Position numbers: made by a program
Part shown: positions 18,401 through 27,400 of the stretch, one piece after another
How positions within the stretch are numbered: the stretch's first letter is position 1
How the letters are laid out: every line of letters starts with the position of its first letter
Origin: Okamejei kenojei
Taxonomy: Eukaryota
DNA length: 64,000 nucleotides
Assembly (NCBI GenBank): GCA_035221665.1
Contig: CM069158.1
Span: 33,418,001-33,482,000, forward strand
Reading direction: 5' to 3'

Positions 18401-21400
18401 TCAGAGTTAAATGCTCCATTTTATTTGACAGATGAGGATGTTCTGAATTTACAAATATTGATTTCTCTAACTTCAAGTAATCCCTCCCCCATCCTAGTCG
18501 TCCCGTTGAGTTCCACTTTCTGTATTAACCCCCAAAACCAACAATGAACCATTGTGGGCTCCACATTTCATGATTATTGTTCCTTTCTGCATATCTTCCA
18601 TTCATTTGTCCTAATTATCGTCCATATCTCTCTCGTCCCCGTGACTCTTAGTCTGAAGAAAGGTCTTACCCCGAAACGTCACATATTCCTTTTCTCCAGA
18701 GCTGCTGCCTGACCAGCCGAGTTACTCCAGCTTTTTGTGTTTGTATTCGATCTCGATCCAGAATAGAATGAATAGAATGCCTTTTATTGTCATTCAAACA
18801 GCTTGGTTTGAACAAAATTGCATTTCTAGTCTTAACATTACAAAAACATCCAAGACCCACACTTAACACAGTTTACACAAACATTCATCACAGTGAATCT
18901 CCTACACCTCCTCACTGTGATGGAAGGCAAAAGTCTTATCTCTTCCCTTTGTTCTTCTCCCGCGGTCCAGCAGTCCAACTGCAACGTCGAGGCGACTGGG
19001 ACTCCCGATGTTAATGCCCCCGGCGGGCAATGGTAAGTCCCGCGGCAGTTTAAGGCGCGCCGGGTGATGTTAGACCCCATTCCTAGTCATTAAACCTCGC
19101 GATTCCAGCGGGAGAAGTTGCTGTCGCGGGAGCTCCGAAAAGCGGTCTCCCACCAGGGACCTGCGAGCTCCCGATGTTCCTGTTCACTGGGCCTGCGGCC
19201 GGAGCCTCCGAAGCTCTGAAGTCATGTTGCAGCCGCGCGCCACCACAGCTCTTCCCGTTCCGAAGTAAGCCAGCTCCGCGATGGCGAGTCCGCAGGCTCT
19301 GTGAAGGAGCCATCCTTCACAGTGGATGATCAGCCATGATCAGATTGAATGGCGGTGCTGGCTCGAAGGGCCGAATGGCCTCCTGCACCTATTTTCTATG
19401 AGCCCTCAGGTTGGTTCCGGTTGGAGGCCACCACCGGCTCCACGATGTTAGGCCCAACGACATCGGAGATCCGACAGGGAAAAAGGGAAGAGATTAACGG
19501 TTTCCCCCACCTCCCCTCCCCCCATATATACACAGCTAAAAAATAATAAAAACTAGAATCAACACATACATTCAACGAGACAAAAATTTAAAAAAAAGAC
19601 AGACGGACTGCAGTCGAGCCGCTGCCGAAAGGCGCCGCCACACCACACTTCAAGGTTGTGCAATGTTTATAAATGTCTAGCTGTGAATCTTGGAGAAAAG
19701 CACTTCCTAACTCACAGATACAGTGCATGTTTTTGGAGGTGCTGAAAGATTTCCCCAACCCGATATTAAATTTAATATTTAGAATTTTTATACACATGAC
19801 CTCTGAGTTAGCAAGATAGCAACAATAATCAATTATTTACATACAGTATTTATATTTTATACAATTGTAGAATTCAATCGAATACCTACATATTCAAATC
19901 ATATCAATAATACAAAATCTCCTCATTGAAAATTGGGGACAACAATGGAGCTTCAAGTAATAAGGCAAGTCAAATTTGAGCAGTGGGCACAAATACCAAA
20001 GAATTAAATTGTTACCCTTGCTCCACAATTTCAAGGCATGATAACCAAAGACAAGATTGAGTGTGTTAAACGCTCAACCACCTATCCATTTTTTTTTGTG
20101 GATTTCAGTTATCTATACAGTTCACACAGCTTACGTACAATGTACTTAACTTATACAGTAAAGCTTTCACCACATCCACATGTCCCCTTAATATTTGGGT
20201 TATTGAAAACAAATTCACTGGAGAGTTTAGATTCAATAAAATCCATCTCAGTTCCAAGCAGGGTTAACTGTGCTTTCTGATCAATGAACACACGTACACC
20301 TGTGAAGAAAACAAAAAATGATGATTAGACTGGATGGAAACAAGCTAGATTTAGTTATTTCCTATGTTTGACCATTCACAAATATCACTGAAATTGCACA
20401 ATTTAAATCAGTGTTTAAAAAATCAACTGTTAATCAAAAGGTGCAGACTGAATATCCCAAACTCAAATTTCTTTATCACAATTATATACCCTATTGCAAG
20501 GTACCTGTTCCTTCTTAGCAGGCCAATATGAAGCAAATTAAGTCATAAATCTAACACATAAAAGTACACTCCTAGCAAACAGACTTTTCAGTTAATACGT
20601 AGAATATTAATCCACTGCAAACCACAGATCGCTGATATTCCATACCATCCTGATTTACTTCTTCATCAAATTTTCCTTTCTCCGTTGCATAGTCTATCAC
20701 ATAGGAGAGTCCACTGCAGCCACGAGTACGGACTCCTACCTTCAAACCAACCTGAAGTACAAAAAACAAAATGGTCTTAATGGCATCAATGCAATACAGA
20801 ATTGTCAAAATGAAACTGATCTATACTGTTATGTATTGCCCAGGAATAATAACAACGGGGTAAGTAATTAAATAGTAATTTACTAACTAACTTTGAACAT
20901 GTTACATCACCCTAACTTACATATAAATGGCTGCAGCAAATTGCAAAGTTTCTGCAGATGATAAGGAATGCAAAGTGAATGCGCAGCGGTAGAGATATGC
21001 AGATACCGGAAAGGACCACCTGTTCAGTCGCAAACATTTGGAAAAAATATATATCCTTCCATCTTAAAAAGATTATGCTTCTTCCTCAAAGGCACTGTCA
21101 CAATCAGGTTTATTTTGCAGTCTCTCTCTTTCAATTCCAAACCCAACTGCTCATCTTTCCTCTTCACCCCTATGCCTCCACATTTAAATGCTTTAGTCAA
21201 ACATAGCTGAGATTTTCGTTTATTGATACTCTAAAGTAAAGTATTATTTAGGCCCATTGAAAAATTCTACTTTTTATTTACAAAAATCATAGAATGCAAT
21301 TTAAAACTTGCTGATTCTGACTAAATTGTATGGTTTTACAAAATTAAACACAAGAATATCATGAATGTTAATGGTTTATTCTACATTAGTTAGAAATATT

Positions 21401-24400: not shown

Positions 24401-27400
24401 CATCCGGAGGCTGCTGGGAATTGTTCGATCAGCTGAGAAGGTTGTTGGCTGCAATCTTCCCCCCATTGATGGACTGTACACTGCAAGGGCCAGGAAGTGA
24501 GCAGGTAAGATCATCTCTGACCTTTTTCACCCTGGCACAAACTCTTTGAAGCACTTCCCTCTGGAAGGTGACTCCGTACAGTCAAAGCCGCCACAGTCAT
24601 ACATAAAAACAGCCTTTTTCCACGTGCAGTAGCTTTACTCAATAACCAAAAGTCTGTAGCCTCCTTTTGCTCTGGTATTTTATTTAATTCACATGTTTAA
24701 ACTATAATGTTTTATTCTTAATGTTTTACTGTATGTCGTTTTGTTACTTGCGAGCGGAGCACCAAGGCAAAGTCCTTGTATGTGTACATACTTGGCCAAT
24801 AAACGTATTCATTCATTCAGAATGTGGAATATCATTGAGAAATTGGAACACCAAGGGGACCTAAGCTTGAGGAACAATATCTCATTTTCCGTTGTAGCCT
24901 TCCGGACTCACAATTGAATTCAATAACTTTGGGAAACTGAAATTCTTAGTTTGTAACAGTCATCCACCTGTATTGTTAGCTCTGGTTGCCTTTCGACCCC
25001 CCCCTTCTCTGGAAGAAGGTATAGGAGCCGGAAAACTTTAAGGTCCACGTTCAAGAGCTGCTTCTTCATAACAACCGTAATTACGCACTACAACCTCCAA
25101 ATAAACTGCGAACATCATCATTTCTATCTTTACATTATTGTTTTGTTAAATATATATTCATACCGAACTTTTTTGGTTGTGTAAGATGGAGTTTACAGAT
25201 TACTATGTTTACACAACTGTTGTGCTGCTGCAAGTAAGAATTTCATTGTTCCGTTTCGAGACATTGACAATAAAAGACTCACTTACACAACCTAACCTGC
25301 GAAACCTGTCCTGCATTTCGTAACTCAGTTTTTGACAAAGTTCTTTTGTCCATGTTCTTCACTCACTGATCAGATAAGCAGGTTCACAATTTACCCCCAT
25401 GGTCAGCCCCACTTTTACCCTGTTAGAGACCATCACCTCCCCACCCACTCTACAGTTTTGCATCTACCTTCGCCTTTCATTTCTGAAAAAGTACCCTCGA
25501 CCTGAAACGTTGACCTTGTTTTCCTCCATACAGATGCGGCCTGATCTGACTATTAACAGCATATTTGTATTTTTGCCACTCCAGCAATCATTTAGCTAAG
25601 ATGGTTTCAATGCAGCAACAAGCAATTGCAGATGCTGATTTACCCAAAAAAAGACAAGTAGTGCTGGAGTGACTCAGTGGGTCAGGCAGCGTCTCTGGAG
25701 GACATGGATAGGAGACGAAGACGTTTCAGGACGAGCCCTTCCTCAGAATTCTTCAGTCTACATTCTTCAGTTAAATTAAAAAAAAAAAGATTCGCGCTCA
25801 GGTGCCGCGTCCCGCCTTACCAGCAGCAGGGCGGCCCGGGTGGGCAGACGCAGTCTCCGGGCGCTCACCGCCCTGACACTCGCCCTCACGGACGCCGCCA
25901 TCTTGTCCTTCCAACAACAACAACGACGACGACGACACGCCTCCGACAACAGCCCGACCTCGAGCCCCACGTCTCTGCTCTGCACTGGCCGAGAGGGAAG
26001 CCAATCGCACCCCGGCCCGGCAACCACTACATAGCGGGAGATTCGATGCAAGCGTCGGGAGTCCAAACATCACCTCAGGTGCTGCCTGACTCCAAACATC
26101 ACCTCAGGTACTGCCTGACTCCAAACATCACCTCAGGTAGCAATGTTACAAAATTTCGAGATTTTAAAAATCAACACTGCAATTTATCCCACCAGATAAA
26201 GCATAAAAAGAAGTTTAATTTGACACCTAATTCACATTCATATCTTCAGTATTAAAAACGTTATGGCCATTTTCATACTCGGAAATTAGTATCTTGTTCC
26301 CTATTGCTTTTCCATTGACTTAACACAAAAGCTGTGATCGAGGCCGGTCAAAAGCCCATAATTTTCTTAAAAATTAAGAGAACTGAAATACATCTTCAGT
26401 TATTATAGATTGAAGCATTCTGAAACAAATATGAAACAATCTTACTTGGATGACCTGAAATTAAAGCATATAATTAGTTAGTTACCTAATTGTAGCTAAT
26501 TACAAAATTCAATTACTAGATCTAAACATCTATCCATTCCTTAAGAAAAGATAAACATTTTTAAATAGCCTAGGTGTCCAAATAACATTCACACAAGAAT
26601 TCACAATATAACATGATTTTTAAATCTCATTGTCATGAATTTATAGGCAAATGGAAGGAATTTAGTGTTTAATTCCCGTAAATCAATGGCCATGTAAATC
26701 ATCTTGCGAGTGGGAATTTGTGGAATGCAATCGATTGGAACGTTGTGGTTTGCGGTGAATTTAAACCCCATATCGGCAGGAAAAACACTGTCGGTTCGTA
26801 TGGGGCCTAAATCACCTTTTCACAACGTAAAATTTGGATTTAGGTAATCCTAAGAAGCAAGTTTATATGTAAAATAAACAGCTCACCTTTATTTGTCCCG
26901 TACAGGAGATCCGTCCCATTGTCAGCGTTGACGCCGTTAGAAGTAGATTTTTATTTTACTCCAACGCTGAAATTGTCCCGCGTTTTAAAAAAAAATTCAC
27001 AGAACGGCAGTCGGAATGAATTTTCAGCATTAGCTAGCACAGCGGTAGAGTTGCTGCCTTGCAGTGCCAGAGACCCGGGTACGATCCTGACAACGGGTGC
27101 TGTCTATAGAGAGTTTGCCCGGTGACTGCATGGGTTTTCTCCTGGAGCTCTGGTTTTCTCTCACATTCCAAAGACATTGAGGTTTGTAGGTTGTCTGTCT
27201 CCTATAAATTGTCCCTAGTGTGTAGGATAGAACTCCTGTACAGGGTGATCCCTGGTCAGTGCGGACTCGGTGGGCCTATGGGGCTGTTTCCACTCTGTAT
27301 CTCTAAAGCCTAAAGTACAGATACAGCGTGGAAACAGGGCCTTTGGCCCACCTAATACACATTGACCAGCGTACATTTGCCAGGCTATGATGGGTTGGAT

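What the first reader, a model, noticed from the sequence alone, without database searches (positions are those of the whole stretch)
20151..25901. Intact ISCA1-type gene inside the R3HDM4-MED16 block: candidate retained ohnolog
Seen: a complete four-exon gene (81/54/106/149 nt, 129 aa, three Cys ligands, CpG promoter) lies between R3HDM4 and MED16. Established: in human, R3HDM4 and MED16 are neighbours in this same orientation on 19p13.3 with no ISCA gene between them, while ISCA1 is on 9q21. The 9q21-22 and 19p13.3 regions are paralogous (DAPK1/DAPK3, GNAQ/GNA11, TLE1/TLE2, SHC3/SHC2). The preserved introns exclude a retrocopy. Inference: this is a second ISCA1 from vertebrate genome duplication that was lost in mammals, or a case of reciprocal loss. 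ISCA1 is also the disputed MagR magnetoreception candidate, so an extra copy in an elasmobranch would be of interest; no such function is shown here.
Basis: partly seen in the sequence, partly recalled or inferred. Interest (0 to 1): 0.7.

Follow-up and report, generated by a model that had tools for sequence, protein, structure and literature searches.

The report
Old ISCA1 paralog beside shark MED16
An intact iron-sulfur-cluster assembly gene of the ISCA1 type sits between R3HDM4 and MED16 in this shark-like genome, and it belongs to an old sister lineage of the human-type ISCA1 gene that sturgeons still keep alongside the human type, so shark and human "ISCA1" are probably not direct counterparts.

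Summary
A four-exon (81/54/106/149 nt), GT-AG-spliced, stop-free ISCA1-type gene lies on the minus strand at 20151-25901. It has a small CpG island at its start, is tail-to-tail with R3HDM4 and head-to-head with MED16.

Its closest relatives are shark proteins that NCBI calls "ISCA1 homolog, mitochondrial-like" (118 of 128 residues identical to Heptranchias). In trees these, the chimaera gene and the sturgeon/paddlefish "-like" genes form one group (88-94% support). The gar/teleost ISCA1 group is separate (90-99%). Sterlet has one gene of each group on different contigs, and a recent sturgeon duplication is rejected (AU p 0.003-0.04).

An ancient duplicate is therefore supported. Genome duplication as its cause is inferred, not shown. 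No tetrapod-type copy from any cartilaginous fish appeared in two best-120 lists, which weakly favours reciprocal loss over an extra copy. The alternative that sharks keep a moved tetrapod-type ortholog is not rejected (p 0.09-0.12). The likely function is ordinary mitochondrial [4Fe-4S] assembly; nothing here bears on magnetoreception.

The parts
25821..25901 (-). ISCA1-type gene, coding exon 1 (81 nt): start codon and mitochondrial-type presequence
   Evidence: 27 codons, donor GT at 25820-25819, first in-frame ATG after a stop, A at -3 and G at +4, 6 Arg and no Asp/Glu. 23 of 27 residues identical to Heptranchias P0009.
22497..22550 (-). coding exon 2 (54 nt, 18 codons)
   Evidence: acceptor AG and donor GTAAGT. 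16 of 18 residues identical to P0009. Database isoforms of S. canicula, Polyodon and Danio lack exactly this 18-residue block, so the exon limits are shared by both lineages.
20646..20751 (-). coding exon 3 (106 nt): first Cys ligand and the lineage-specific Ile
   Evidence: acceptor AG, donor GTATGG, one base left over. TIGR00049 positions 24-57, 28.9 bits, below the cut-off on its own. 32 of 35 residues identical to P0009.
20151..20299 (-). coding exon 4 (149 nt including TAA): C-G-C ligands and the lineage-specific Gln (IDQKAQ)
   Evidence: PF01521 at 29.2 bits. TIGR00049 at 59.8 bits, positions 59-106 of 106. E. coli IscA chains 1s98 and 1r94 are the best PDB sequence matches. 47 of 48 residues identical to P0009.
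25780..26080 (.). CpG island over exon 1 and the presumed promoter
   Evidence: GC 0.64, CpG obs/exp 1.08, 32 CpG, against 0.40 and 0.39 for the window.
19771..19776 (-). nearest poly(A)-signal-like hexamer (ATTAAA), 375 nt after the stop
   Evidence: The next AATAAA is at 18788. A consensus match only.
3278..16438 (+). R3HDM4-type gene (recognised coding pieces), ending tail-to-tail about 3.7 kb from the ISCA1 stop
   Evidence: PF13902 R3H-assoc at 3278-3463 (26.2 bits) and 13865-14098 (33.5 bits). The C-terminal piece 16271-16435 was recognised by eye only (no Pfam match). The N run 5776-5924 lies inside and was left alone.
30751..55990 (+). MED16 gene, head-to-head with the ISCA1 gene (start codons about 4.85 kb apart), with its own CpG-rich start at 30401-30800
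   Evidence: Med16_N at 39086-39679 (107 bits); Med16_bridge at 44183-44482, 46068-46508 and 50237-50503; exon 39230-39661 is 99% identical to named shark and ray MED16; first and last coding pieces by eye.

Best explanation
This is a working gene for a mitochondrial A-type iron-sulfur carrier of the ISCA1 kind. It belongs to a lineage, here called B, that is found between R3HDM4 and MED16 in this window and on the MED16 chromosome in other sharks. By sequence, lineage B also includes the chimaera gene and the '-like' ISCA1 genes of sturgeon and paddlefish. The ISCA1 of gar, reedfish, teleosts and a turtle forms the other lineage, A. The two lineages split before the last common ancestor of bony fishes and most likely before that of jawed vertebrates, which fits an origin in the early vertebrate genome duplications. 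Bony vertebrates other than chondrosteans then lost B. Cartilaginous fishes probably lost A, so in sharks this gene would be the only ISCA1 and would do the housekeeping job: import into mitochondria through its Arg-rich presequence, binding of an Fe-S cluster through three Cys, and maturation of [4Fe-4S] proteins together with ISCA2 and IBA57. Shown here: gene anatomy, family membership, neighbours, nearest relatives, two lineages in sterlet. Inferred: timing and mechanism of the duplication, loss of A in sharks, biochemical role.
For: Anatomy and family. Nearest relatives: among the best 120 of 7495 hits to exon 4, the 9 chondrichthyan rows (8 species) reach 90-98% identity and 7 of them are named '-like' by NCBI or UniRef. 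118 of 128 exon-wise residues are identical to Heptranchias, against 95 for sterlet '-like' and 97 for gar. Two lineages: sterlet has P0023 '-like' (contig 9,613,114) and P0183 plain ISCA1 (contig 117,442,607). Trees: B (chondrichthyan plus chondrostean '-like') has 94/92 support in 26 rows and 88/86 in 34 rows; A has 90/89 and 99/95. AU tests reject the two sterlet genes as one clade (p 0.003) and reject chondrostean '-like' plus A as one clade (p 0.037 and 0.018). Two columns (Ile64, Gln88) are shared by all or nearly all chondrichthyan rows and sterlet '-like' and are absent from 14 of 14 A rows and 11 of 11 invertebrate rows; 0 columns support the opposite grouping; the window carries both residues. 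In Arapaima the A gene (21.37 Mb contig) and MED16 (24.86 Mb contig) differ. Intron positions are shared by A and B: exon-2-less isoforms lack exactly 18 residues in S. canicula, Polyodon and Danio. This points to a DNA-level duplication. No chondrichthyan A-type row is in the best 120. Role of ISCA1/ISCA2/IBA57: review PMC10235907, passages read.
Against: Only 129-130 alignment columns carry the signal. Neither tree recovers vertebrates as one group, because arthropod rows fall inside. Most similarity within B is ancestral: invertebrates share EKGKFDEEV and FID.KAQ, so only two residues are exclusive, and the C-terminal Thr also occurs in two unnamed invertebrate-like proteins. The AU test does not reject chondrichthyan genes plus A as one clade (p 0.087, p 0.119). 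I defined the groups after seeing the sequences, which weakens these p-values. Absence of a shark A copy rests on best-120 lists whose cut-off (198 bits) lies right where gar, sterlet and reedfish A proteins score (201, 199, 198), so a shark A protein could sit just below it. No batoid ISCA1 row was listed at all, although batoid MED16 rows exist. Linkage of the sterlet '-like' gene to med16 could not be tested, because the sturgeon MED16 representative came from another species. The 9q21/19p13.3 paralogy is recalled, not tested. The window's own protein was never placed in a tree, because the exons were not joined.
Confidence: 0.6

Rival explanations
1. Sharks keep both lineages: this gene is an extra, MED16-linked copy beside an unseen tetrapod-type ISCA1 elsewhere in the genome.
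For: Sterlet shows that both can coexist. NCBI gives the shark genes the same '-like' suffix as the sterlet B gene. The best-120 limits could hide an A-type row.
Against: 0 chondrichthyan A-type rows among the 9 chondrichthyan rows listed and the 8, while A-type rows of gar, sterlet and reedfish were listed. The '-like' suffix can also simply reflect missing synteny with the human gene (my knowledge of NCBI naming, not tested).
Confidence: 0.2
2. The shark gene is the true ortholog of tetrapod ISCA1 and kept ancestral residues. It, or the bony-fish gene, changed place, and the chondrostean '-like' gene is the other old duplicate.
For: The AU test does not reject chondrichthyan plus A as one clade (p 0.087, p 0.119). 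Most shark-specific similarity to the sterlet '-like' gene is ancestral.
Against: The best trees group sharks with chondrostean '-like' genes (94/92 and 88/86). There are 2 exclusive shared residues against 0. A location among 19p13.3-type genes is what a paralog, not the 9q21-type ortholog, would show (positions recalled).
Confidence: 0.13
3. The duplication happened in the bony-fish stem after the split from cartilaginous fishes, so the shark gene is an unduplicated pro-ortholog of both A and B.
For: The shark gene looks ancestral in most columns.
Against: A plus chondrostean '-like' as one clade is rejected at p 0.037 and p 0.018. Ile64 and Gln88 are shared by sharks and sterlet '-like' only.
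Confidence: 0.05
4. Retrocopy, pseudogene or assembly artefact.
For: None found.
Against: Three GT-AG introns at positions shared with annotated isoforms, an open frame, all ligands, a CpG island, 92% identity to an annotated shark protein, and the same chromosome as MED16 in two other sharks.
Confidence: 0.01

Closest known systems
NCBI/UniRef models 'iron-sulfur cluster assembly 1 homolog, mitochondrial-like' of sharks (Heptranchias perlo P0009, Pristiophorus japonicus P0008, Heterodontus, Carcharodon, Scyliorhinus, Stegostoma) and the Callorhinchus milii ISCA1 entry
   Same: Same length class (129 aa for the two closest). 117-118 of 128 exon-wise residues identical. Same lineage residues. 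Same chromosome as MED16 where this could be checked.
   Different: No listed protein is identical, so this species' protein is not among the rows shown. Some models carry an upstream in-frame start that this window lacks.
Sterlet and paddlefish 'ISCA1 homolog, mitochondrial-like' (P0023, P0020)
   Same: Groups with the shark genes in both trees and shares Ile64 and Gln88.
   Different: Only 95 of 128 residues identical. Has Asn, not Ser, after the first Cys. Its neighbours are unknown. It coexists with an A-type gene in the same species.
Tetrapod/teleost-type ISCA1 (lineage A; human ISCA1 at 9q21.33, disease gene of MMDS5)
   Same: Same family, same four coding exons as far as the exon-2-less Danio isoform shows, same three Cys, about 73-76% identity to the shark proteins. 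Presumably the same biochemical role (PMC10235907, passages).
   Different: Separate clade with its own residues (L64, E87, K88, IEKKAQ). Not on the MED16 contig in Arapaima.
Bacterial A-type carriers IscA and SufA (PDB 1s98, 1r94, 2d2a, 1x0g)
   Same: Exon 4 aligns end to end with their C-terminal halves, including C-x-C.
   Different: They have no presequence. Scores stay below the equivalog cut-offs for IscA, SufA and ErpA.
Insect ISCA1 / 'MagR' (disputed magnetoreceptor candidate)
   Same: 73-77% identity to the shark protein. Named MagR in some NCBI rows.
   Different: It is the single invertebrate gene that predates the A/B split. No evidence here links lineage B to magnetic sensing.

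Membership tests
A-type Fe-S carrier (HesB/IscA; Pfam PF01521, NCBIfam TIGR00049) | Profile match above the curated cut-off | tested here: met
   Exon 4 alone: PF01521 29.2 bits against 26.3; TIGR00049 59.8 bits against 58.8. Exon 3 alone: 28.9 bits, below the cut-off, aligned to the adjoining profile positions 24-57.
A-type Fe-S carrier (HesB/IscA; Pfam PF01521, NCBIfam TIGR00049) | Three conserved Cys, C-x(n)-C-x-C | tested here: met
   One Cys in exon 3 and C-G-C in exon 4. These columns are invariant in the 28-row alignment.
A-type Fe-S carrier (HesB/IscA; Pfam PF01521, NCBIfam TIGR00049) | IscA fold | tested here: inconclusive
   The AlphaFold model of the closest ortholog P0009 had mean pLDDT 55 and was not used. 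Sequence matches to solved IscA and SufA chains exist.
Eukaryotic mitochondrial ISCA1 (as against ISCA2) | Best matches are ISCA1 proteins; N-terminal targeting sequence | tested here: met
   All named rows are ISCA1 or generic Fe-S accessory names, and none is ISCA2. Exon 1 has 6 Arg and no acidic residue. Import itself is not testable here.
Eukaryotic mitochondrial ISCA1 (as against ISCA2) | Needed with ISCA2 and IBA57 for [4Fe-4S] protein maturation | not testable with these tools
   Known for the human proteins (PMC10235907, passages).
Tetrapod/teleost ISCA1 orthology group (lineage A) | Falls inside the A clade | tested here: inconclusive
   The closest shark orthologs fall outside A in both trees (A 90/89 and 99/95), but forcing them together with A is not rejected (p 0.087 and 0.119).
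Tetrapod/teleost ISCA1 orthology group (lineage A) | A-specific residues (L64, E87, K88) | tested here: not met
   The window has I, D and Q at these places, whereas 14 of 14 A rows have L, E and K.
Tetrapod/teleost ISCA1 orthology group (lineage A) | 9q21-type neighbours | tested here: not met
   The neighbours in the window are R3HDM4 and MED16. The human neighbours are recalled, not tested.
MED16-linked ISCA1 lineage B (shark, chimaera, chondrostean '-like') | Ile64 and Gln88; clade with the chondrostean '-like' genes | tested here: met
   Both residues are present in the window exons. The clade has 94/92 and 88/86 support for the closest orthologs.
MED16-linked ISCA1 lineage B (shark, chimaera, chondrostean '-like') | Linkage to MED16 across the lineage | tested here: inconclusive
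   Adjacent in the window. Same contig in 2 of 2 comparable sharks. Sterlet and paddlefish could not be compared.
Ohnolog pair from the early vertebrate genome duplications | The two copies lie in paralogous chromosome blocks and split after invertebrates and before jawed vertebrates | not testable with these tools
   No eukaryote genomes were searchable. The paralogy of the blocks is recalled. PMC5489176 (passages) supports Hsa19 with Hsa5, Hsa1 and Hsa15 only.
Processed retrocopy | No introns, poly(A) remnant | tested here: not met
   Three GT-AG introns of 3270, 1745 and 346 nt (coordinates).

The most novel reading that the evidence does not exclude
Elasmobranchs keep both old ISCA1 copies, and the MED16-linked one, which in all elasmobranch rows and in this window has Ser instead of the otherwise universal Asn next to the first cluster-binding Cys, has taken on a specialised role distinct from housekeeping Fe-S assembly, for example in a sensory tissue.
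Probability: 0.05. Interest if true: 0.7.

Novelty: new member of a known kind. Interest (0 to 1): 0.4.

Why it matters
If sharks and chimaeras carry only lineage B while tetrapods and teleosts carry only lineage A, the genes called ISCA1 in the two groups are hidden paralogs. Functional or evolutionary comparisons, including MagR comparisons across vertebrates, should then not treat them as orthologs. It also adds one more marker to the 19p13.3-type chromosome block and one more case of differential duplicate loss, with chondrosteans as the lineage that kept both. I found no paper naming such a split. Searches: 'ISCA1'+'ohnolog' gave 0 papers; isca1a/isca1b/isca1l/ISCA1-like gave 8 papers, all plant or human-probe contexts by title and abstract; and find-mode passages in PMC11298677 and PMC7144353. 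Supplements were closed. Automated gene trees in public genome browsers may already show the split; I could not look. The biology is otherwise ordinary.

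Tried and rejected
1. The listing of cluster members on ten ISCA1 clusters was meant to show which species, batoids included, sit in them.

2. Comparing contig lengths to test med16 linkage of the sterlet '-like' gene failed. The MED16 search returned Acipenser oxyrinchus and A. sinensis rows, not A. ruthenus, so no comparison was possible. 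The Labeo and Xyrauchen comparisons were set aside because their clusters are large or the species is polyploid.

3. Teleost rows with 90-92% identity to exon 4 (Diretmus, Aldrovandia, Centroberyx, Genypterus and others) were checked as possible B genes. All 8 fetched are A type.

4. Four unnamed high-ranking rows were checked as possible batoid or second shark copies. They look invertebrate.

5. Structure: the model of P0009 from a 28-row alignment had mean pLDDT 55, so no fold search was run.

6. Literature for the 9q21/19p13.3 paralogy found nothing direct.

7. Rfam gave one tRNA-like hit in a MED16 intron and nothing in the ISCA1 gene.

8. The joined coding sequence was never made, translated, searched, folded or placed in a tree. 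Closest named database proteins stood in for it.

Full report
**Scope and rules.** The gene model is spliced, so every search used single exons. The joined coding sequence was never made, translated, searched, folded or placed in a tree. Where a full-length protein was needed I used named database proteins returned by the searches. The only N run (5776-5924) was left alone. I do not take the window for human: its best protein matches are shark and ray proteins.

**Observation.** The gene is on the minus strand.
- Exon 1: 25821-25901 (81 nt). Exon 2: 22497-22550 (54 nt). Exon 3: 20646-20751 (106 nt). Exon 4: 20151-20299 (149 nt with TAA).
- All three introns (3270, 1745 and 346 nt) begin GT and end AG after pyrimidine-rich tracts.
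- Each exon is open in its phase, and the lengths add to 129 codons plus stop.
- The ATG at 25901 is the first in-frame ATG after a stop and has A at -3 and G at +4. The 27 residues of exon 1 hold 6 Arg and no acidic residue, as a mitochondrial presequence would.
- One Cys lies in exon 3, and C-G-C lies near the end of exon 4.
- Exon 4 alone passes Pfam PF01521 (29.2 bits against 26.3) and NCBIfam TIGR00049 (59.8 against 58.8). Exon 3 aligns to the adjoining profile positions but is below the cut-off by itself.
- The best solved-structure matches of exon 4 are E. coli IscA and SufA chains.
- A 300-bp CpG island covers exon 1: GC 0.64 and obs/exp 1.08, against 0.40 and 0.39 for the window.
- An ATTAAA lies 375 nt after the stop.

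**Neighbours.**
- R3H-assoc domain pieces typical of R3HDM4 lie on the + strand at 3278-3463 and 13865-14098. A C-terminal piece at 16271-16435 was recognised by eye only.
- MED16 pieces lie on the + strand from a start codon at 30751 (by eye) through Med16_N and Med16_bridge matches to a last coding piece at 55844-55987 (by eye).
- The order is R3HDM4 (+), ISCA1-type gene (-), MED16 (+). The ISCA1 gene is tail-to-tail with R3HDM4 (about 3.7 kb between stops) and head-to-head with MED16 (about 4.85 kb between start codons), and each gene has its own CpG-rich start.

**Nearest relatives.**
- Exon 4 (48 residues, search for longer proteins) found 7495 proteins, of which the best 120 were listed.
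- Nine rows from eight cartilaginous fishes reach 90-98% identity: Pristiophorus, Heptranchias, two Scyliorhinus species, Heterodontus, Carcharodon (two isoforms), Stegostoma and Callorhinchus. Seven of these rows are named 'ISCA1 homolog, mitochondrial-like'.
- Two chondrostean rows (sterlet and paddlefish, both '-like') reach 92%.
- No row is identical to the window, and none is from a ray or skate.
- Compared exon by exon, the window shares 118 of 128 residues with Heptranchias, 117 with Pristiophorus, 95 with sterlet '-like' and 97 with gar.

**Two lineages.** I fetched 42 proteins.
- By eye, 11 are of the shark type (B): Y.I.Y, EKGKF.EEV, IDQKAQ, SFT.
- 19 are of the gar/teleost/turtle type (A): YTL.Y, IEKKAQ, SFN or SFS.
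- 12 are invertebrate or invertebrate-like.
- Invertebrates share EKGKFDEEV and FID.KAQ, so most B traits are ancestral and A is the derived form.
- In a 33-row alignment, two columns (Ile64 and Gln88, Heptranchias numbering) are shared by chondrichthyan rows and sterlet '-like' and are absent from 14 of 14 A rows and 11 of 11 invertebrate rows. No column supports sterlet '-like' with A in the same exclusive way. The window exons carry both residues.
- A full-length search with the Heptranchias protein (best 120 of 7973 listed, cut-off 198 bits) showed that sterlet has both a '-like' gene (contig 9,613,114) and a plain ISCA1 (contig 117,442,607). The latter is A type.

**Trees.**
- With 26 rows, B (seven chondrichthyan rows plus sterlet '-like') has 94/92 support and A has 90/89.
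- With 34 rows, after adding paddlefish, a catshark isoform, four teleosts and three unnamed invertebrate-like rows and dropping the long-branched turtle, B has 88/86 and A has 99/95.
- AU tests reject the two sterlet genes as one clade (p 0.003) and reject chondrostean '-like' plus A as one clade (p 0.037 and 0.018). The chondrostean '-like' gene is therefore neither a recent duplicate nor, on these data, the product of a bony-fish-stem duplication.
- The tests do not reject chondrichthyan genes plus A as one clade (p 0.087 and 0.119).
- Limits: only about 130 columns; vertebrates are not recovered as one group in either tree; and I defined the groups after seeing the sequences.

**Synteny beyond the window.** A MED16 exon (39230-39661) found 211 proteins, of which the best 120 were listed.
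- For sterlet the comparison failed, because the sturgeon MED16 rows come from other species.
- In Arapaima the A gene and MED16 are on contigs of different length (21.37 against 24.86 Mb).
- Exon-2-less isoforms of S. canicula, Polyodon (B) and Danio (A) lack exactly the 18 residues of the window's exon 2. The exon limits therefore predate the split, and the duplication was at DNA level.

**What it is.**
- The best reading is an ancient ISCA1 paralog lineage, MED16-linked in sharks, kept by cartilaginous fishes and chondrosteans and lost by other bony vertebrates.
- An origin in the early vertebrate genome duplications is plausible but inferred. The quoted 9q21/19p13.3 gene pairs are recalled. 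The paper I read in passages links Hsa19 with Hsa5, Hsa1 and Hsa15 (PMC5489176). A review lists 9q21.33 and 14q24.3 for the two human ISCA genes (PMC10235907).
- No A-type protein of a cartilaginous fish was listed, so reciprocal loss is likelier than an extra copy. The evidence is weak, because A-type rows of gar, sterlet and reedfish score 198-201 bits, right at the cut-off.

**How it works.** Inferred from family membership: import into mitochondria, cluster binding through the three Cys, and [4Fe-4S] protein maturation with ISCA2 and IBA57 (PMC10235907, passages). If it is the only ISCA1 in sharks, it must do the housekeeping job. Nothing here bears on magnetoreception.

**Novelty.** Related shark genes are already annotated, as '-like'. 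I found no paper that describes a vertebrate A/B split of ISCA1 (find-mode passages only; supplements closed). I rate it a new member of a known kind, of moderate interest.

**Left open.**
- Whether this genome has an A copy.
- Where the chondrostean '-like' genes lie.
- Whether rays have the gene.
- Any fold-level check (the model was too poor).

Noticed in passing
window 20646-20751 (exon 3); proteins P0008-P0014, P0039: All elasmobranch rows fetched (8 rows, 7 species) and the window have Ser right after the first cluster-binding Cys (RGCSG). The chimaera, sterlet and paddlefish '-like' rows, all 19 A-type rows and all 12 invertebrate-like rows fetched have Asn.
   Followed up: partly
(database lists): Ray MED16 rows exist (Narcine bancroftii, Hemitrygon akajei), but no ray or skate ISCA1 row appears in either best-120 list. 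Possible reasons are loss, divergence or hiding inside shark-led clusters; this is unexplained.
   Followed up: no
window 59057-59757, minus strand: Actin-family coding pieces (Pfam Actin positions 231-290 and 301-360) lie downstream of MED16 and converge on it. Only part of the gene was seen, and a reverse-transcriptase fragment lies just upstream.
   Followed up: partly
window 36672-37711, plus strand (MED16 intron): Tc1-type transposase remains lie in overlapping frames (HTH_Tnp_Tc3_2 and DDE_3), which suggests a decayed element.
   Followed up: partly
window 22947-23044 (ISCA1 intron 1) and similar stretches elsewhere: A 35-nt inverted repeat, 91% complementary, with a 28-nt loop. ORF translations with the same recurring peptide words turn up at many places in the window, which suggests a short hairpin-forming repeat family.
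   Followed up: partly
window about 23850-24500, plus strand (ISCA1 intron 1); 60225-60551, plus strand: Reverse-transcriptase-like fragments. The second scores 29.5 bits against RVT_1, just under the 29.6 cut-off. The first was seen by eye only.
   Followed up: partly
window 45864-45935, plus strand (MED16 intron): A single Rfam tRNA match of 37.9 bits. It could be a tRNA gene or a tRNA-derived repeat.
   Followed up: no
window 26062-26139 and 53533-53684: Two tandem repeats: 29 bp x 2.7 just upstream of the ISCA1 CpG island, and 45 bp x 3.3 in a GC-rich stretch after a MED16 exon.
   Followed up: no
window 27801-29600: A GC-rich (0.50-0.57) but CpG-poor (obs/exp 0.27-0.80) block lies between the ISCA1 and MED16 starts, with long + strand ORFs. 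The one ORF tested had no Pfam match.
   Followed up: partly
paper PMC7144353 (passage): Lu 2020 states that chicken has two IscA1 UniProt entries, one lacking the Cys motif. Whether that is an isoform or a remnant of the second lineage was not checked.
   Followed up: no
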